Program-made: the position numbers and the translations under genes
In this document: piece after piece, positions 30,062 through 41,933 of the stretch
Position numbering within the stretch: the first letter of the stretch is position 1
Layout: every line of letters starts with the position of its first letter
IMG/VR virus record: IMGVR_UViG_3300026546_000005
Location: 1-56,973 of that record
Origin: a virus
Taxonomy: Duplodnaviria; Caudoviricetes
DNA: 56,973 nucleotides
Reading direction: 5' to 3' (one strand)
The notes under the pieces: generated by a model
What the model was told of the DNA's origin: nothing
Databases searched by the model: none
What the model saw: the letters and a program-made list of their open reading frames with translations, nothing else

Positions 30062-30646
30062 TTAATAAATAATTAATTTTTTAACAGCTTCTTCATTATT
30101 AGTATTAACAACAATAAATATAATTCCAGTAATTGAATTAAAATTTGTTTCTGTTGTGTTTGGATATAGTATTAATAATAATCGACCTGTTACATCATAC
30201 ATTTTTACTTCATTTATAATATCATCTGCTGTAACATATATTACTCTATTATTTTCTCTAACATTTATTTTAGATATAGGTGTTTTATAATCTTGCGTTG
30301 GTATATATATTCGTCCATAATAAATTGTATTTGCAACTAATTCTTCATTTCCTGCTGAATCAACCCAGTATGAAAAACGTTCATTTTCATAATGTTCAAC
30401 TCTATATGTTAAATACTCATTATTTAAACTATCATAGGAATAAAAATATATTTCTGTTTCTGTTTCAAACCATTTTCCATATAATTCCCAATTATTTAGA
30501 CTGTCTTTTTTATAAAAAAACGTATTTTGACCATTATACACAGCTTTAAGCGTAGCAGTATCATTAACATATGTTACTAAACTATCTAATTGTGCTGTAA
30601 CGTTATATGTTATAAATAATAATAAAAAAGTAATTAAATATTTCAT
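30062..30646 (-). CDS. Secreted protein with T9SS type A C-terminal sorting domain
   Basis: Sec signal ending TA-Q; C-terminal MYDVTGRLL...GIIFIVV...KKLII. Confidence 0.65.
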   Translation of the reverse strand: MKYLITFLLLFITYNVTAQLDSLVTYVNDTATLKAVYNGQNTFFYKKDSLNNWELYGKWFETETEIYFYSYDSLNNEYLTYRVEHYENERFSYWVDSAGNEELVANTIYYGRIYIPTQDYKTPISKINVRENNRVIYVTADDIINEVKMYDVTGRLLLILYPNTTETNFNSITGIIFIVVNTNNEEAVKKLIIY

Positions 30647-30694
30647 ATCATATATATTTTATTTAAAAATATTTTTTTATTTAAAAAAATGTAT

Positions 30695-30702
30695 TATATT
30701 TG
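30695..30702 (+). promoter_or_regulatory. TAnnTTTG promoter of tRNA operon 1
   Basis: TATATTTGTAAAAC, also found upstream of operon 2. Confidence 0.7.
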
Positions 30703-30739
30703 TAAAACAAACATAAAAAACTTTATATATATTATTGAT

Positions 30740-30817
30740 ATGAAAAATATAATTGTCCATATGAGTTCAAGTAGTTCGCACGTAAGTGTAGGCTATGATT
30801 ATGTGTTACTCATATAA
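30740..30817 (+). CDS. Attenuator leader peptide 1 MKNIIVHMSSSSSHVSVGYDYVLLI
   Basis: Ser/His/Val codon run matches the downstream tRNAs; lies between promoter and terminator. Confidence 0.85.
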   Translation: MKNIIVHMSSSSSHVSVGYDYVLLI

Positions 30818-30837
30818 GGATAATATAAAAATAATTT

Positions 30838-30878
30838 AAAAATCCCTTGGGTAACACACTCAAGGGATTTTTTATTTT
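30838..30878 (+). terminator. Attenuator terminator (3:4) of tRNA operon 1
   Basis: AAAATCCCTTGGGT/ACTCAAGGGATTTT hairpin plus T tract directly before the first tRNA. Confidence 0.85.
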
Positions 30879-30883
30879 AATAA

Positions 30884-30978
30884 GGATGGGTTATCCGAAA
30901 GATTGCAGGGTACCGGAAACGGTCTTGAAAACCGTTACCGCCTCGTCGGCGGTGTGGGTTCGAATCCCACCTCATCCG
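30884..30978 (+). tRNA. tRNA-Ser(UGA), enlarged D loop
   Basis: GGATGGG/CTCATCC acceptor, ACGGT-CTTGAAA-ACCGT, long variable arm, TTCGAAT. Confidence 0.85.
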
Positions 30979-30983
30979 CAAAT

Positions 30984-31068
30984 GGAGAGTTGGCCGAGTT
31001 GGTAAGGCACCAGATTGCTAATCTGAGATGAGGTAATACTTGCGCGAGTTCGAGTCTCGCACTCTCCG
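30984..31068 (+). tRNA. tRNA-Ser(GCU)
   Basis: GGAGAGT/ACTCTCC, anticodon loop TTGCTAA, long variable arm. Confidence 0.9.
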
Positions 31069-31075
31069 CTAACAT

Positions 31076-31150
31076 ACCCCTATAGCTCAGTTGATTTAGA
31101 GCACCTGACTTACATTCAGGAGGTCGTAAGTTTGAATCTTACTAGGGGTA
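31076..31150 (+). tRNA. tRNA-Val(UAC)
   Basis: ACCCCTA/TAGGGGT, CCTGA-CTTACAT-TCAGG. Confidence 0.9.
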
Positions 31151-31160
31151 CTTTTAATAT

Positions 31161-31249
31161 GGGACGTGTAACCGGTAATTGGTGTCCGACCTGATTGTGG
31201 CTCAGGAATCTCTAAAGAGACTATGGGAGTTCGAATCTCCTCACGCCCC
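31161..31249 (+). tRNA. tRNA-His(GUG), atypical (long variable arm)
   Basis: G-1:C73, CCTGA-TTGTGGC-TCAGG, TTCGAAT T loop, extra TCTC-TAAA-GAGA arm. Confidence 0.75.
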
Positions 31250-31253
31250 CATT

Positions 31254-31841
31254 TTATTTAATAGACCATGACCAACCACATTTACCCACACTTGTAATTT
31301 TACCAGTTCTATCTAGTTCAAACATATTTATTTCTTCATCAGTAAAACTTTCATCCATATTTACAAATCCCAATTTTCGATCTTTTAATTCTTTTAAAAC
31401 TGAACCAATTAAACCATTTATTGATAATAACGTTTCAGGTAATTTTAACCACGGATTCGTAACACCTAAAGCAGATGTTAAAGTTTCAATACTTTTGTTA
31501 ACGTTATCTTTTTTAAAAACTCTTGTAATGTGTTTCATAACTTCACCCGTATTTCTAGTTGTTTCTCTTGACTGAACAACCCACATTCTAACTCTAACTG
31601 AATTATGTTTAGGCATATTTTTTTCAAGTAATATTAAACCGTTTGTGTCACCGTCACCATCAGCTTCAAAATCAATTCTATTATCATCCATTTTTCTTAA
31701 TTTTATTGGTTCACTTGGAATAACAGATATTAATGTTTTATCTTTATCTGATGGATCATCTGTTGCAAGTATCATATATAAATTCCAACGTTTACGTTTA
31801 CGTAATATTTCTATAAAATCTAATTCTAATCTAACTTTCAT
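31254..31841 (-). CDS. Hypothetical protein
   Basis: 195-aa ORF with normal composition. Confidence 0.65.
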   Translation of the reverse strand: MKVRLELDFIEILRKRKRWNLYMILATDDPSDKDKTLISVIPSEPIKLRKMDDNRIDFEADGDGDTNGLILLEKNMPKHNSVRVRMWVVQSRETTRNTGEVMKHITRVFKKDNVNKSIETLTSALGVTNPWLKLPETLLSINGLIGSVLKELKDRKLGFVNMDESFTDEEINMFELDRTGKITSVGKCGWSWSIK

Positions 31842-32885: not shown

Positions 32886-32893
32886 TATATTTG
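32886..32893 (+). promoter_or_regulatory. TAnnTTTG promoter of tRNA operon 2
   Basis: TATATTTGTAAAAC. Confidence 0.7.
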
Positions 32894-32929
32894 TAAAACA
32901 AAGAAGAAAAACTGTATATATAATTAACG

Positions 32930-33010
32930 ATGAGAACAAATTATTTACATATTAACGACATATTTAGTTTTCCCTTCCCACAGGAATGGATTGCTCTATT
33001 TGTGACTTAA
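32930..33010 (+). CDS. Attenuator leader peptide 2 MRTNYLHINDIFSFPFPQEWIALFVT
   Basis: F-S-F-P-F-P run matches downstream tRNA-Pro and tRNA-Phe. Confidence 0.8.
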   Translation: MRTNYLHINDIFSFPFPQEWIALFVT

Positions 33011-33035
33011 TATGTAAGTAAATTATAAAATTTTT

Positions 33036-33077
33036 AAAAGTCCCAAGTAGAGCTAAAATTCAACTTGGGACTTTTTT
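33036..33077 (+). terminator. Attenuator terminator (3:4) of tRNA operon 2
   Basis: AAAAGTCCCAAGT/ACTTGGGACTTTT hairpin plus T tract, 5 nt before tRNA-Pro. Confidence 0.85.
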
Positions 33078-33082
33078 ATTAT

Positions 33083-33347: not shown

Positions 33348-34931
33348 ATGGCTAAATTTAACAAAAAAACAGAAAAAGAGACTCTTATTAATGACATGGG
33401 TCAAAAAGCATTCAAACTTTCTCCAAAGGAAGAGTTAATATCAACTGTATTAACTACATTTGTTACTAATTCATTTTATGAATCAGAAAACGAAATATTG
33501 GATAGAATTCGTAAAGCCATGTCAAAATGCGATACTGAATTTGTCGCAAAGACTGCTTTATACACAAGACGTGATGCAAATATGCGTAGTTCATCACACG
33601 TGTTAGCTGGCGAATTAGCACAACGTGCAGCAGGAAAGGAATGGGCTAAAAGATTCTACAAAAATATTTGTGTTCGTCCTGATGATATGGCAGAAATTTT
33701 GGGTTATTACTTAAATGTAATTCGTGAAGGTTCTGATGGTAAAAAAATACCTAATTCAATGAAAAAAGGATTTAAAGCTAAACTTGAATCTTTAGATCCA
33801 TATTTAATTGACAAATATAAAATGAAAAGACGCGCAATTAAGTTAATTGATTTAGTTAATTTATTTCATCCAAAACCAAATGAAAAAAATGCTGAAGCAT
33901 TTAAACGTTTACGTGATGGTATGCCTTTAGATGATCTTTATACTTCTAAAATTCTTGAAAAAGAAATGTCTAAAGCCGGACAAAACACAGAAGATAAAAA
34001 AGAAGCTAAAGCAACTGCTATTCGTGAAACATTAACTGCGAATGAAAGTAAGTCACCAATTTTTAACTTAGTTAGAAATTTACGTAACATACTTGAAAGC
34101 ACACCAGATATGGTTGATGATGTAGTAACAAACATTACAAATCGTGATAAAATTTTAAAATCACGCATGTTACCATTTAGATTTGCAACTGCATATGCTG
34201 AAGTTGAAAAACTTAATGCAGTTGATAGAGACGCAAAAACTAAAGTTTTAAATGCACTTGAAACTGCAATTAATTACTCATGTGAAAATATTCCTGAGTT
34301 ATTTGGTAATACTGCTATATTAATTGACCATTCAGGTTCAATGAGAGGTAGTAACGGTAGTGGATCATCAAAAGTATCTGCATTTTCAGATGTAACAACA
34401 TCTATTATTGCTAATTTATTTGGAGTAATGCTAATGCAATCTCAAGATAATGTATACATGGGATTATTTGGTGACAGACTTGTAACAGTAAAAGACATTG
34501 ATCGTTCAAAAGGTGTTTTAAAAACACATAAAGAAGTTCATAAATTAGGTTCAACATGTGGCCTTAGTTCAGAACATGGTTTATTCGAGTTTTTTGCTGA
34601 CGTTGTTAGACATAGAGTTAGAGTTGATAATGTTATCATATTTTCAGATATGGTAATTGGTTCTAACAGCTGGTATGGTCGCGGATCAATTGGGGACATT
34701 AGAACAGGTTCTGGATCGTTTAATTCATTGTTTAAACGCTTTAAAGAACTAAATCCTTTAGCAAATATAGTATCAGTAAACTTACATGATACTAAAGGAA
34801 CAACAGTCTTTAATAAAAAACTTGGTGTTACTCAAATTTCTGGATGGTCTGAAAAGATTTTTGATGTATTGAAAAATATGTCTAAAGGTTATGAAGATAT
34901 AATTGCAGAAATTGAAGCAATTAAACTTTAA
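33348..34931 (+). CDS. Ro60/Rsr-like TROVE-domain RNA-binding protein
   Basis: G..AF.LSP..EL, FYE, ALY.R....MR, RPDD, KY, L.DL..L.HPKP, LVRNLRN, SR.LPFRF, vWA DHSGSM. Confidence 0.9.
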   Translation: MAKFNKKTEKETLINDMGQKAFKLSPKEELISTVLTTFVTNSFYESENEILDRIRKAMSKCDTEFVAKTALYTRRDANMRSSSHVLAGELAQRAAGKEWAKRFYKNICVRPDDMAEILGYYLNVIREGSDGKKIPNSMKKGFKAKLESLDPYLIDKYKMKRRAIKLIDLVNLFHPKPNEKNAEAFKRLRDGMPLDDLYTSKILEKEMSKAGQNTEDKKEAKATAIRETLTANESKSPIFNLVRNLRNILESTPDMVDDVVTNITNRDKILKSRMLPFRFATAYAEVEKLNAVDRDAKTKVLNALETAINYSCENIPELFGNTAILIDHSGSMRGSNGSGSSKVSAFSDVTTSIIANLFGVMLMQSQDNVYMGLFGDRLVTVKDIDRSKGVLKTHKEVHKLGSTCGLSSEHGLFEFFADVVRHRVRVDNVIIFSDMVIGSNSWYGRGSIGDIRTGSGSFNSLFKRFKELNPLANIVSVNLHDTKGTTVFNKKLGVTQISGWSEKIFDVLKNMSKGYEDIIAEIEAIKL

Positions 34932-34933
34932 AA

Positions 34934-34963
34934 AAGGAGAGGAATTTTATATTCCTCTCTCTT
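34934..34963 (+). terminator. Hairpin / probable terminator after TROVE
   Basis: GGAGAGGAAT/ATTCCTCTCT; weak U tract. Confidence 0.55.
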
Positions 34964-35005
34964 AAAAAAATAAAACAAATATTTTTATTTTAATGTAAAA
35001 TATAT

Positions 35006-35013
35006 TATATTTG
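35006..35013 (+). promoter_or_regulatory. TAnnTTTG promoter of the Y-RNA-like cluster
   Basis: TATATTTG 7 nt before the first stem. Confidence 0.7.
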
Positions 35014-35020
35014 TAAAAAC

Positions 35021-35103
35021 AAACTAAAGATAGTAAGTTTAAAAGTTACATCGTTTATAGGGGAAATAACAATTCACTTTTAACATTAAATCTTCTTTAG
35101 TTT
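35021..35103 (+). ncRNA. Y-RNA-like element 1 (no tRNA domain)
   Basis: AAACTAAAGA/TCTTTAGTTT outer stem, TAGT, TTAAAAGT/ACTTTTAA inner stem, TACATCG motif; downstream of Ro60. Confidence 0.65.
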
Positions 35104-35131
35104 AAAAAACGATCTTTAATATAAATGACAT

Positions 35132-35272
35132 AAATAAGATAGTGAGTAATTTTATTACATCGAGAACAATTAGCTTAGTTGGTTGAGCACTGCCCTTTCA
35201 CGGTAGAGGTCGTCGGTTCGATCCCGACATTATTCTATAAATACATATAAAATTACAGCATTCTTCTTATTT
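35132..35272 (+). ncRNA. Y-RNA-like element 2 enclosing a complete tRNA-Glu(UUC)-like cloverleaf (35164-35236)
   Basis: AAATAAGA/TCTTATTT, GTAATTTTAT/ATAAAATTAC, TACATCG; CTGCC-CTTTCAC-GGTAG; GTCGG-TTCGATC-CCGAC. Confidence 0.7.
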
Positions 35273-35281
35273 TTTCAACTT

Positions 35282-35419
35282 GGCGAGGACAGACAACACA
35301 TTAATATTAAACGTTCTCTGTTCATAGTAGTAATAATATTAATTACATCGATTAGCGATATTGGTTTCGCACCTTGGTTTTGGTCCAAGTCTATGCGGGT
35401 TCGATTCCCGCCCTCGCCG
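35282..35419 (+). ncRNA. Element 3: tRNA-Gln(UUG)-like RNA with the Y domain inserted between the acceptor 5' strand and the D arm
   Basis: GGCGAGG(35282-88)/CCTCGCC(35412-18); insert with ATTAATATTA/TAATATTAAT, TAGT, TACATCG; CTTGG-TTTTGGT-CCAAG. Confidence 0.7.
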
Positions 35420-35426
35420 CGAATTT

Positions 35427-35570
35427 TAAAGTTGGATAGTGATAAAAAACGTTACTTCGTAGCTCAGATGGGTAGAGCAATTGACTGCAGATCAATGGGT
35501 CGTTGGTTCAACTCCAACCGAAAACGTTAATTCGTTTTCTTCACGTTTTTTAAACGTACTTCCAACTTTA
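35427..35570 (+). ncRNA. Y-RNA-like element 4 with tRNA-Cys(GCA)-like D, anticodon and T arms and a loop-closed acceptor-like hairpin
   Basis: TAAAGTTGGA/TCCAACTTTA, TAAAAAACGT/ACGTTTTTTA, TACTTCG; ATTGA-CTGCAGA-TCAAT; GAAAACG/CGTTTTC. Confidence 0.7.
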
Positions 35571-41467: not shown

Positions 41468-41472
41468 ATTTG

Positions 41473-41546
41473 TGGGCCTTGTAAGGCTTGAACTTACGAC
41501 CCCCTGATTATGAGTCAGGTGCTCTAACCAACTGAGCTAAAGGCCC
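41473..41546 (-). tRNA. tRNA-Ile2(CAU, lysidine type)
   Basis: GGGCCTT/AAGGCCC, CCTGA-CTCATAA-TCAGG; the leader of this operon is rich in AUA and has no internal AUG. Confidence 0.85.
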
Positions 41547-41742: not shown

Positions 41743-41748
41743 ATGTAT

Positions 41749-41781
41749 AAAAAAACCGGGTAACTTTTTGTTACCCGGTTT
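41749..41781 (-). terminator. Attenuator terminator (3:4) of tRNA operon 3
   Basis: Minus strand AAACCGGGTAAC-AAAAA-GTTACCCGGTTTTTTT, 6 nt before tRNA-Ala. Confidence 0.88.
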
Positions 41782-41804
41782 CATTGGTATTAACCACTAA
41801 AAAT

Positions 41805-41879
41805 TTAAATGAGAACACGAGTAACATGACGATATTTTATCGCCTTTTTTATTGTTGTTATTATCGTTATTGTTCTCAT
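41805..41879 (-). CDS. Attenuator leader peptide 3 MRTITIITTIKKAIKYRHVTRVLI
   Basis: 13 consecutive Thr/Ile(AUA)/Lys/Ala codons match the four downstream tRNAs. Confidence 0.9.
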   Translation of the reverse strand: MRTITIITTIKKAIKYRHVTRVLI

Positions 41880-41925
41880 ATCTTTATTATATATAGAGTT
41901 TTTTGTTTCTGTTTTATTATATATG

Positions 41926-41933
41926 CAAATATA
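41926..41933 (-). promoter_or_regulatory. TAnnTTTG promoter of tRNA operon 3
   Basis: TATATTTG on the minus strand about 46 nt before the leader ATG. Confidence 0.7.

What the first reader, a model, noticed from the sequence alone, without database searches (positions are those of the whole stretch)
30695..30883. Attenuator 1: Ser/His/Val leader ahead of the Ser-Ser-Val-His tRNAs
Codons 6-17 are GTC CAT ATG AGT TCA AGT AGT TCG CAC GTA AGT GTA; 11 of 12 are Val, His or Ser. The Ser codons split between AGT (read by GCU) and TCR (read by UGA), so both isoacceptors are sampled. Helices: 1:2 ATATGAGT/ACTCATAT (30759-66 with 30808-15, extended by ATTGTCC/GGATAAT); 2:3 TGTGTTACTCA/TGGGTAACACA (30802-12 with 30848-58); 3:4 terminator.
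Basis: partly seen in the sequence, partly recalled or inferred. Interest (0 to 1): 0.88.

Follow-up and report, generated by a model that had tools for sequence, protein, structure and literature searches.

The report
Codon-matched attenuator before phage tRNA genes
A large uncultured phage places a tiny test gene, written mostly in serine, histidine and valine codons, plus a switchable transcription stop directly in front of its serine, valine and histidine tRNA genes, so it probably makes these tRNAs only when ribosomes read those codons slowly.

Summary
A Bacteroidota-type promoter box (30695) precedes a 25-codon ORF (30740-30817). Codons 6-17 are 11/12 Val/His/Ser. A strong intrinsic terminator (30838-30872) ends 11 nt before four tRNA genes: Ser-UGA, Ser-GCU, Val-UAC, His-GUG.

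- 11 of 24 leader codons are read by exactly these anticodons (background 0.087, P=2e-6). It is the single outlier among 362 small ORFs of the window.
The 2:3 antiterminator beats 1000/1000 shuffles.
- In a ribosome-masked nascent-transcript model, 2:3 probability is 0.83-0.92 while the A site is on codons 1-17. It drops to about 0 from codon 18, just after the last cognate codon.
- Two paralogous cassettes in the window behave the same way (FSFPFP before Pro/Phe; TITIITTIKKAIK before Ala/Lys/CAU/Thr).
- Unrelated leaders in another phage contig (L201) match their tRNA sets as well.

Best reading: a trp-type, multivalent leader-peptide attenuator that gates a phage tRNA operon by decoding speed. 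There are no expression data and no orthologue.

Ten literature searches found no paper describing this control for tRNA genes. This scan has already noted the same phenomenon on other phage DNA.

The parts
30695..30702 (+). Promoter-like -7 box TATATTTG (Bacteroidota TAnnTTTG type). It is preceded by a T/A-rich block shared by all three cassettes.
   Evidence: TATATTTGTAA has 7 exact copies in the window. With up to 1 mismatch there are 31 matches against 18.9 expected, and 0 of 100 shuffles reach 31. The three cassettes align almost perfectly here. The TAnnTTTG motif in flavobacteria comes from passages of PMC9723704.
30716..30733 (+). Conserved 18-mer AAAAACTNTATATATAWT of unknown role. It ends 5-6 nt before the ATG in all three cassettes.
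   Evidence: Exact matches occur only at the three cassettes (30716, 32907, 41903-41886).
30740..30817 (+). Leader ORF of 25 codons plus TAA: MKNIIVHMSSSSSHVSVGYDYVLLI.
30755..30790 (+). Regulatory run, codons 6-17; 11 of 12 are Val/His/Ser.
   Evidence: In the ribosome-mask model the antiterminator stays open for A-site codons 1-17 and closes from codon 18.
30752..30824 (+). Helix 1:2 (30752-30766 with 30808-30824). It encloses an inner hairpin, and its 3' arm covers the stop codon.
30803..30857 (+). Antiterminator 2:3 (30803-30826 with 30838-30857; core 30803-12 with 30848-57).
30838..30879 (+). Intrinsic terminator 3:4: stem 30838-30852 with 30858-30872, loop of 5, T-rich tail.
30884..30978 (+). 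tRNA-Ser (anticodon UGA), with a long variable arm, a 16-nt D loop and a 6-bp anticodon stem.
   Evidence: ARAGORN does not find it.
30984..31069 (+). tRNA-Ser (GCU).
31076..31151 (+). tRNA-Val (UAC).
31161..31250 (+). tRNA-His (GUG) with an encoded G-1 and an unusual long variable arm.
32886..33082 (+). Paralogous attenuator 2: ORF 32930-33010 (MRTNYLHINDIFSFPFPQEWIALFVT) and terminator 33036-33075, before tRNA-Pro and tRNA-Phe.
41743..41933 (-). Paralogous attenuator 3: ORF 41879-41805 (MRTITIITTIKKAIKYRHVTRVLI) and terminator 41781-41753, before tRNA-Ala, -Lys, -CAU and -Thr.

Best explanation
This is a ribosome-mediated (trp-type), multivalent leader-peptide transcription attenuator. It gates the phage's Ser(UGA)-Ser(GCU)-Val(UAC)-His(GUG) tRNA operon.

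Proposed mechanism:
1. Host RNA polymerase starts at the TAnnTTTG-type promoter (inferred).
2. A ribosome translates the 25-codon leader close behind the polymerase (inferred).
3. If Ser-, His- or Val-tRNA is short, the ribosome lingers somewhere in codons 6-17. This holds arm 1 and leaves region 2 (30803-30826) free. Region 2 pairs with the rising 5' arm and loop of the terminator (30838-30857). The terminator then cannot form and the polymerase reads into the tRNA genes.
4. If decoding is fast, the ribosome passes codon 17 and sits over region 2 and the stop codon. The 3:4 hairpin forms and transcription stops at the T-run, 11 nt before the first tRNA.

The result is negative feedback on tRNA supply: the phage makes this tRNA set when, and only when, its codons are read slowly.

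Shown by sequence and computation: the ORF, the codon match, the three alternative helices, and the position of the switch point. Inferred: the transcription start, translation of the leader, transcription-translation coupling, and the in vivo response.
For: 1. Codon match. 11 of 24 leader codons are read by the four downstream anticodons under strict wobble (background 0.087, P=1.9e-6). The run of 9 Ser/His/Val is unique among 362 small ORFs; the next best is 5.

2. Specificity. The cross-matrix of the three window leaders against the three tRNA sets is [11,0,3], [3,5,2], [1,0,13].

3. Structure.
- Folding z-scores are -5.4, -6.3 and -7.6 for the three cassettes.
- 2:3 complementarity beats 1000 of 1000 shuffles in each of the three.
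- The helix sequences of cassette 2 differ from those of cassettes 1 and 3, yet stay complementary.

4. Switch point. In transcripts truncated at the terminator loop, with a 30-nt ribosome mask, P(2:3) behaves as follows:
- attenuator 1: 0.83-0.92 for A-site codons 1-17, and 0.00-0.11 from codon 18;
- attenuator 2: 0.98, falling to about 0 at codon 18;
- attenuator 3: 0.97, falling to 0 at codon 15.
In each case this lies at the end of the cognate run (att1 and att2: directly after its last codon; att3: on its last two codons, 0.48 at codon 14 and 0 at codon 15).

5. Necessity. The upstream gene is divergent. The terminator is strong (15 pairs). No TAnnTTTG box lies between the leader and the tRNA. 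The tRNAs can therefore only be made by reading through the terminator.

6. Recurrence elsewhere. In contig L201, leader MKRFSCTYSSKTGKGKTLVVQDLYT precedes Thr, Lys, Arg, Phe, Gly, Tyr, Cys, Ser, Arg and Ser tRNAs (run of 16; next best 9 of 153 small ORFs). Leader MLIVVINIWNQVADQRSGRGFLYL precedes Val, Ala, Asn, CAU, Trp, Asp, Ile and Gln tRNAs (run of 13; next best 9). Each has a terminator 6-7 nt before the first tRNA and a 2:3 duplex with P=0.008 and P=0.02.

7. Rare codons. Rare G/C-ending synonymous codons are enriched among the regulatory codons: 9 of 33, against a background of at most 0.071 (P=4e-4). Most of the anticodons are thus probed with both wobble partners (TCA/TCG, CAT/CAC, GTA/GTG in this leader; Ser-GCU by AGT only).

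8. Host lineage. Flavobacteria use TAnnTTTG promoters, lack Shine-Dalgarno sites, and show signs of leader-peptide attenuation at amino-acid operons (passages of PMC9723704).
Against: - No RNA data.
- No orthologue of this leader was found, so there is no covariation test across species. The only comparisons are with paralogues and analogues.
- At equilibrium the full-length terminator wins at every ribosome position (P of at least 0.90 in all six elements; 0.96 for attenuator 1). The switch must therefore be kinetic, which folding programs cannot show.
- Without a ribosome the truncated transcript already favours 2:3 (P=0.69 for attenuator 1). Helix 1:2 is thus not a clearly dominant anti-antiterminator.
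- The switch-point result depends on my assumed footprint (A-site first base -15 to +14).
- Codon 6 (GTC) needs U34 to read C, and codon 8 is Met.
- My unbiased whole-ORF scan took the first in-frame ATG, which lies in the promoter, and a 3-kb tRNA set. On that basis attenuator 1 reached only P=0.075.
- The leader in L204 is not significant (run of 4, reached by 26 of 114 small ORFs; 2:3 duplex P=0.37).
- The candidates in L199 and L077 lead their loci only narrowly (9 against 8; 7 against 6).
- Most TROVE-linked phage loci examined show no such element.
- The host and its transcription-translation coupling are unknown.
Confidence: 0.72

Rival explanations
1. The element is a translation-independent leaky terminator or a processing/stability structure. 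The promoter cassette was simply duplicated three times, the small ORF is not translated, the tRNAs are made by constitutive partial readthrough, and the codon match is chance.
For: - The first ~80 nt of the three cassettes are near-identical, which points to recent duplication.
- At equilibrium the terminator always forms.
- There is no evidence that the ORF is translated.
Against: - The duplicated part ends at the ATG. Beyond it, the ORFs differ and each matches its own tRNA set (diagonal 11, 5, 13 of the cross-matrix).
- Unrelated leaders in L201 match their own sets.
- The end of each cognate run coincides with the modelled switch point.
Confidence: 0.08
2. The leader is translated and matters, but the control is not transcription termination. 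For example, ribosome position might govern RNase P/E processing or the stability of the precursor. Alternatively, the peptide gene could be a separate small gene whose terminator happens to leak into the tRNAs.
For: - The terminator lies only 11 nt from the tRNA 5' end, so its hairpin is part of the RNase P substrate.
- The kinetics cannot be modelled here.
Against: - The hairpin plus U-run is a canonical intrinsic terminator.
- The 2:3 pairing targets specifically its 5' arm and loop.
- The peptide sequences are not conserved between the paralogues beyond what the helices impose.
Confidence: 0.1
3. It is a T-box-like riboswitch: uncharged tRNA binds the leader RNA directly through codon-anticodon pairing and stabilises the antiterminator, with no ribosome involved.
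For: It also uses a terminator/antiterminator pair, and the signal concerns tRNA.
Against: - Rfam gives no T-box match at the gathering threshold in the window or at E up to 1 in 30600-31300.
- The cognate codons number a dozen, are in one frame, and lie between a start and a stop codon.
- Three amino acids and four anticodons are represented, which a single specifier loop cannot do.
Confidence: 0.02

Closest known systems
Multivalent leader-peptide attenuators of enterobacterial amino-acid operons (thrL for Thr+Ile; ilvL/ivbL for Ile/Leu/Val; also trpL, hisL, pheL, leuL). These names and features are recalled from established knowledge, not from a call.
   Same: - A short translated leader with a run of regulatory codons for more than one amino acid.
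- Three overlapping helices (1:2, 2:3, 3:4).
- An intrinsic terminator just before the regulated genes.
- A stop codon inside region 2.
   Different: - The regulated genes are the tRNAs themselves, not biosynthetic enzymes, so the loop feeds back on tRNA supply rather than on amino-acid supply.
- The element is phage-borne.
- It has a Bacteroidota-type promoter and no Shine-Dalgarno site.
- There is no sequence homology: His_leader RF00514 scores 29 bits against a cut-off of 49.
The pheST (pheM) leader-peptide attenuator controlling phenylalanyl-tRNA synthetase (recalled).
   Same: It is a leader-peptide attenuator that adjusts a component of the decoding apparatus according to the availability of the cognate aminoacyl-tRNA.
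   Different: The product is an enzyme, the leader is monovalent (Phe only), and the element is chromosomal in enterobacteria.
T-box riboswitches (Rfam RF00230).
   Same: A terminator/antiterminator decision is taken according to tRNA status.
   Different: T-boxes bind uncharged tRNA directly and have no ORF. No T-box match was found here.
'Leader-peptide attenuators gating phage tRNA clusters', noted earlier by this scan on at least seven other phage genomes. These are unchecked AI notes.
   Same: The same architecture and the same reading: a codon-matched test ORF plus a switchable terminator before each tRNA block.
   Different: They lie on other DNA, and no sequence similarity to this leader was reported. 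I did not examine those loci myself.

Membership tests
Ribosome-mediated (leader-peptide) transcription attenuator | A short ORF with start and stop codons in the 5' leader of the regulated genes | tested here: met
   ORF 30740-30817, 25 codons, lying 66 nt upstream of the first tRNA.
Ribosome-mediated (leader-peptide) transcription attenuator | A cluster of regulatory codons cognate to what the operon supplies | tested here: met
   11 of 24 strictly cognate codons, P=1.9e-6. It is the unique outlier among 362 small ORFs. The cross-matrix is diagonal.
Ribosome-mediated (leader-peptide) transcription attenuator | An intrinsic terminator between the leader ORF and the regulated genes | tested here: met
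   30838-30872 with a T-run. No promoter box lies downstream of it.
Ribosome-mediated (leader-peptide) transcription attenuator | An antiterminator mutually exclusive with the terminator, and blocked by a ribosome that has passed the regulatory codons | tested here: met
   The 2:3 duplex is -15.8 kcal/mol and 0 of 1000 shuffles reach it. P(2:3) is 0.83-0.92 for codons 1-17 and about 0 from codon 18. This is a model result, dependent on the assumed footprint.
Ribosome-mediated (leader-peptide) transcription attenuator | A 1:2 hairpin competing with the antiterminator | tested here: inconclusive
   1:2 is in the full-length minimum-free-energy fold. In the truncated ensemble without a ribosome, however, 2:3 already has P=0.69.
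Ribosome-mediated (leader-peptide) transcription attenuator | Readthrough rises in vivo when the cognate aminoacyl-tRNA is limiting, and depends on leader translation | not testable with these tools
Ribosome-mediated (leader-peptide) transcription attenuator | Conservation or covariation in orthologous loci | tested here: inconclusive
   No orthologue was found in viral, metagenome or genome collections. Paralogues and analogues do support the design.
Rfam His_leader (RF00514) and other curated leader families | A score at or above the family's gathering threshold | tested here: not met
   29 bits against a cut-off of 49 at 30793-30875. Nothing was found at the gathering threshold.
T-box riboswitch (RF00230) | Stem I with a specifier loop and the conserved T-box sequence | tested here: not met
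   No match at the gathering threshold or at E up to 1 in 30600-31300.

The most novel reading that the evidence does not exclude
The three cassettes act as on-demand 'test strips' for the tRNA pool of the infected cell. Each leader probes most anticodons of its own operon with both wobble partners, including codons that are rare in the phage. Each switches on its own replacement tRNA set when those host tRNAs are depleted. Depletion could come from host anticodon nucleases, from the phage's own host shut-off, or from the codon demand of a 24%-GC genome. This would be a cis-acting feedback regulator of tRNA genes driven by decoding speed, and a sensor arm of the phage-host conflict over tRNAs.
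Probability: 0.4. Interest if true: 0.9.

Novelty: new variant of a known kind. Interest (0 to 1): 0.82.

Why it matters
Leader-peptide attenuation is a textbook mechanism, but it is known for amino-acid biosynthesis and a synthetase operon. I found no paper applying it to tRNA genes.

If the reading is right:
- tRNA supply can be regulated gene-set by gene-set through the ribosome's own reading speed.
- Phages carry tRNA sets that are induced on demand rather than made constitutively.
- This bears on the open question of why phages carry tRNAs. The candidates are codon compensation and escape from tRNA-cleaving defences. The latter is the thesis of PMC10264068, of which I saw only the search listing and the start of the abstract.
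- It gives a sequence-only way to read which codons a phage expects to become limiting.
- It offers compact, modular tRNA-level biosensors.
- It shows that ribosome-coupled attenuation is used by phages of hosts that lack Shine-Dalgarno sites.

Tried and rejected
Orthologue hunt (all negative for this leader):
- Single-protein scans of IMG/VR with both flanking ORFs and the TROVE protein found no relative.
No related leader lay behind any hit. One of these contigs (L077) later gave a weak attenuator candidate elsewhere in the locus.
- The stricter 31-nt cassette pattern gave 0 hits in viral contigs and 0 in genome contigs.
- The cultured-phage collection matched only tRNA genes, at up to 74% identity among the 20 best-listed records (19 of the 111 records fall in the 80-90% identity band).
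- TROVE-alignment scans gave 80 viral, 80 metagenome and 2 genome loci, all at 72% identity or less.
- The 72% locus (L198) has tRNA-Phe but no leader.
- G001/L278, the head of the L119 tRNA array, has a 51-codon ORF, a terminator and about 100 nt before the first tRNA. It is not the same design.

Detector scans:
- My detector looks for a terminator within 45 nt upstream of a tRNA, plus a small ORF. In one search it was run on only 11 of the 81 sources then held. In one search it was run on all 80 metagenome loci.
- It misses attenuator 1 itself, because ARAGORN misses the first tRNA.
- The whole-ORF binomial scan covered 289 cluster starts and 316 ORFs, with L001-L003 dropped as copies of the window. 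It is weak because it starts at the first ATG and uses broad tRNA sets.

Other negative or weak results:
- Equilibrium folding of the full leader with a ribosome mask showed no switch, so I replaced it with the truncated-transcript model.
- L204 was rejected as statistically unsupported.
- No RNA holder was listed for this DNA.
- I did not test whether tRNA-CAU (41472-41546) is a lysidine Ile2 tRNA. That idea rests only on the five ATA codons of leader 3.

Papers:
- PMC4810235: passages read, nothing relevant.
- PMC9723704: passages only. Its Table S7 and SI Appendix D9 list structured 5' regions and might bear on host tRNA leaders. Supplements were closed and I did not open them.

Full report
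WHAT THE WINDOW IS

The window is the whole of an IMG/VR virus record of 56,973 bases. CheckV rates it 26% complete, so it is a fragment of a phage of roughly 200 kb. It has about 24% G+C. It encodes ribonucleotide reductase, a tail fibre with an endosialidase-chaperone domain, a radical-SAM protein and a TROVE/Ro60 protein.

The motif TATATTTGTAA has 7 exact copies. With up to one mismatch there are 31 matches against 18.9 expected, and 0 of 100 shuffles reach 31. It contains TAnnTTTG, the main promoter motif of flavobacteria. These bacteria also lack Shine-Dalgarno sites and show signs of leader-peptide attenuation at amino-acid operons (passages of PMC9723704). A Bacteroidota host is therefore likely but not shown. 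The cultured-phage collection holds no relative beyond tRNA matches.

THE OBSERVATION

- The ORF runs from ATG 30740 to TAA 30815-30817 and encodes MKNIIVHMSSSSSHVSVGYDYVLLI.
- Codons 6-17 (30755-30790) are 11/12 Val, His or Ser.
- Serine is split into AGT x4, and TCA plus TCG.

The minimum-free-energy fold of 30710-30883 contains helix 1:2 (30752-30766 with 30808-30824) and a 15-pair terminator (30838-30872). Its z-score is -5.4, and 0 of 200 shuffles fold as well.

The terminator is followed by a T-rich tail and, 11 nt later, by four tRNA genes:
- The first is missed by ARAGORN. It scores just over the Rfam tRNA-Sec cut-off (47.7 against 47 bits). Its anticodon loop reads UGA where the Sec model has UCA, so it is a long-arm tRNA-Ser(UGA).
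- Then come Ser(GCU), Val(UAC) and His(GUG).

IS IT MORE THAN CHANCE?

- Under strict wobble, 11 of the 24 codons after the ATG are read by these four anticodons. Such codons make up 8.7% of 14,096 codons in the window's 40 long ORFs (binomial P=1.9e-6).
- Among the 362 ATG-ORFs of 15-50 codons in the window, this leader has the longest Ser/His/Val run (9; next best 5).
- The 2:3 duplex between the last third of the ORF and the terminator's 5' arm plus loop is -15.8 kcal/mol. Dinucleotide shuffles average -6.5 with sd 2.1, and 0 of 1000 reach the observed value.

TWO MORE CASSETTES IN THE WINDOW

The same promoter block, and an 18-mer found only at these three places, precede two further leaders.
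- MRTNYLHINDIFSFPFPQEWIALFVT (32930-33010) lies before tRNA-Pro(UGG) and tRNA-Phe(GAA).
- MRTITIITTIKKAIKYRHVTRVLI (41879-41805, minus strand) lies before tRNA-Ala(UGC), Lys(UUU), CAU and Thr(UGU).

Strict cognate counts are 5 of 25 (P=0.016) and 13 of 23 (P=8e-5). The second figure counts ATA as read by the CAU tRNA, which I did not test. The leader-by-tRNA-set matrix is [11,0,3], [3,5,2], [1,0,13].

The three sequences are nearly identical up to the ATG and diverge after it. Even so, each keeps a large hairpin over its ORF, a strong terminator (z=-6.3 and -7.6), and a 2:3 duplex that beats 1000 of 1000 shuffles (-23.4 and -13.7 kcal/mol). Cassette 2 uses helix sequences unrelated to those of cassettes 1 and 3.

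THE SWITCH

With the complete leader at equilibrium, the terminator forms with probability of at least 0.90 wherever a ribosome is placed. So, as in the classical systems, the decision would have to be kinetic.

I therefore folded the nascent transcript cut at the end of the terminator loop. I masked 30 nt around each possible A-site codon, from the first base -15 to +14.
- Attenuator 1: the probability of the 2:3 helix is 0.83-0.92 for codons 1-17, and 0.00-0.11 from codon 18 on. Codon 17 is the last cognate codon.
- Attenuator 2: the drop (0.98 to 0.02) also falls at codon 18, after the final CCA.
- Attenuator 3: the probability falls from 0.83 (codon 13) through 0.48 (codon 14) to 0 (codon 15), at the end of the T/I/K/A run.

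A ribosome delayed anywhere in the run thus leaves the antiterminator free. A ribosome that has cleared the run covers it.

Two cautions apply. The exact codon depends on the assumed footprint. Without a ribosome the truncated ensemble already favours 2:3 (0.69 in attenuator 1), so 1:2 is not clearly dominant.

NECESSITY OF READTHROUGH

The gene upstream (30062-30646) is on the other strand. No TAnnTTTG box lies between the leader start and the tRNA in any of the three cassettes. The tRNAs can therefore only be transcribed through the terminator.

RARE CODONS

Of the 33 regulatory codons in the three leaders, 9 end in G or C (GTC, TCG, CAC, GTG; CCC, TTC; ACG, AAG, GCG). The background for the same amino acids is at most 7.1% (P=4e-4). 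Most anticodons are therefore probed with both of their wobble partners.

RELATED SEQUENCES

No orthologue of this leader could be found.

Using a TROVE alignment, I fetched 80 viral, 80 metagenome and 2 genome loci. I scanned them for a terminator just upstream of a tRNA together with a small ORF.

Contig L201 (99.8 kb, 36% G+C, TROVE 55% identical) carries two clear cases with unrelated leaders.
- MKRFSCTYSSKTGKGKTLVVQDLYT precedes Thr, Lys, Arg, Phe, Gly, Tyr, Cys, Ser, Arg and Ser tRNAs. Codons 2-17 use exactly these eight amino acids.
- MLIVVINIWNQVADQRSGRGFLYL precedes Val, Ala, Asn, CAU, Trp, Asp, Ile and Gln tRNAs.
- Their runs of 16 and 13 are unique among the 153 small ORFs of that locus (next best 9 in each case).
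- Their terminators sit 6-7 nt before the first tRNA, and their 2:3 duplexes have P=0.008 and 0.02.
- The modelled switch falls at the end of each run.

Weaker candidates:
- L199 at 20705 scores 9 of 12 against a next best of 8.
- L077 at 6236 scores 7 of 9 against a next best of 6.
- L204 is not significant.

Most other loci show nothing of the kind, among them the many crAss-like ones with Tyr/Lys tRNAs beside TROVE.

COMPARISON WITH WHAT IS KNOWN

The element works like the multivalent leader-peptide attenuators of enterobacterial amino-acid operons, and in logic like the pheST leader. Both comparisons are recalled from established knowledge. It is not a member of any curated Rfam leader family (His_leader 29 bits against a cut-off of 49) and it is not a T-box.

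What is different is the regulated product, the tRNAs themselves. That difference turns the device into a feedback sensor of decoding capacity.

Ten full-text searches found no paper describing leader-peptide attenuation of tRNA genes, in phages or elsewhere. Subscription-only literature is not covered.

This scan has, however, already noted the same phenomenon on at least seven other phage genomes and one archaeal genome. Those are unchecked AI notes and I did not re-examine them. My evidence is independent of them.

VERDICT

The attenuator reading is supported at the level that sequence analysis allows (confidence 0.72). I class it as a new variant of a known kind of regulator. It is of high interest because it would be a so-far undescribed way to control tRNA genes, and a possible sensor in the phage-host conflict over tRNAs.

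Noticed in passing
31161-31250; also L199:13569 and L204:4686: The tRNA-His(GUG) is 87-90 nt long. It has a 4-bp extra (variable) arm and an encoded G-1. This type-II-like shape is unusual for tRNA-His and recurs in three TROVE-carrying phage contigs, while four other tRNA-His genes in the loci have the normal 73-75 nt (fold).
   Followed up: partly
30884-30978: The tRNA-Ser(UGA) has a 16-nt D loop and a 6-bp anticodon stem. ARAGORN misses it. Rfam scores it as tRNA-Sec, 0.7 bits over the cut-off, although its anticodon is UGA and not UCA.
   Followed up: partly
30716-30733, 32907-32924, 41903-41886; L077:5411-5428: An 18-mer (AAAAACTNTATATATAWT) occurs exactly only in the three attenuator cassettes and ends 5-6 nt before each leader ATG. 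In an unrelated viral contig (L077) the same 18-mer sits 11 nt before a tRNA-Glu. It could be a second promoter element (which would make the leader mRNA leaderless) or a translation-initiation region. Its role is unexplained.
   Followed up: partly
33348-35522: A TROVE/Ro60 gene (Pfam TROVE, E=2.9e-14; phrog_850) is followed by its own promoter box (35006) and a run of tRNA and tRNA-like elements: Glu-UUC at 35163, an interrupted tRNA-like element around 35280-35420, and an Rfam tRNA at 35456-35522. No leader ORF precedes this cluster.
   Followed up: no
30708-30715 (minus strand): CAAACATA is the reverse complement of a TAnnTTTG box. The divergent gene 30062-30646 may therefore be driven by a promoter that overlaps the 5' end of the attenuator-1 transcript.
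   Followed up: no
41472-41546 (minus strand): The tRNA with anticodon CAU follows a leader carrying five ATA codons and no internal ATG. In L201 the leader before a CAU tRNA likewise has ATA codons. This suggests a lysidine-type tRNA-Ile2 rather than tRNA-Met; I did not test it.
   Followed up: no
L204:7786, L205:5798, L206:4362, L209:3911, L121:3750: Several TROVE-carrying phage contigs carry a tRNA with anticodon CUA, an amber-suppressor type that ARAGORN labels 'Pyl'. This hints at stop-codon recoding in relatives.
   Followed up: no
30793-30875: There is a sub-threshold Rfam match to His_leader (29 bits, cut-off 49, E=0.012). It probably reflects the hairpin plus U-run.
   Followed up: yes
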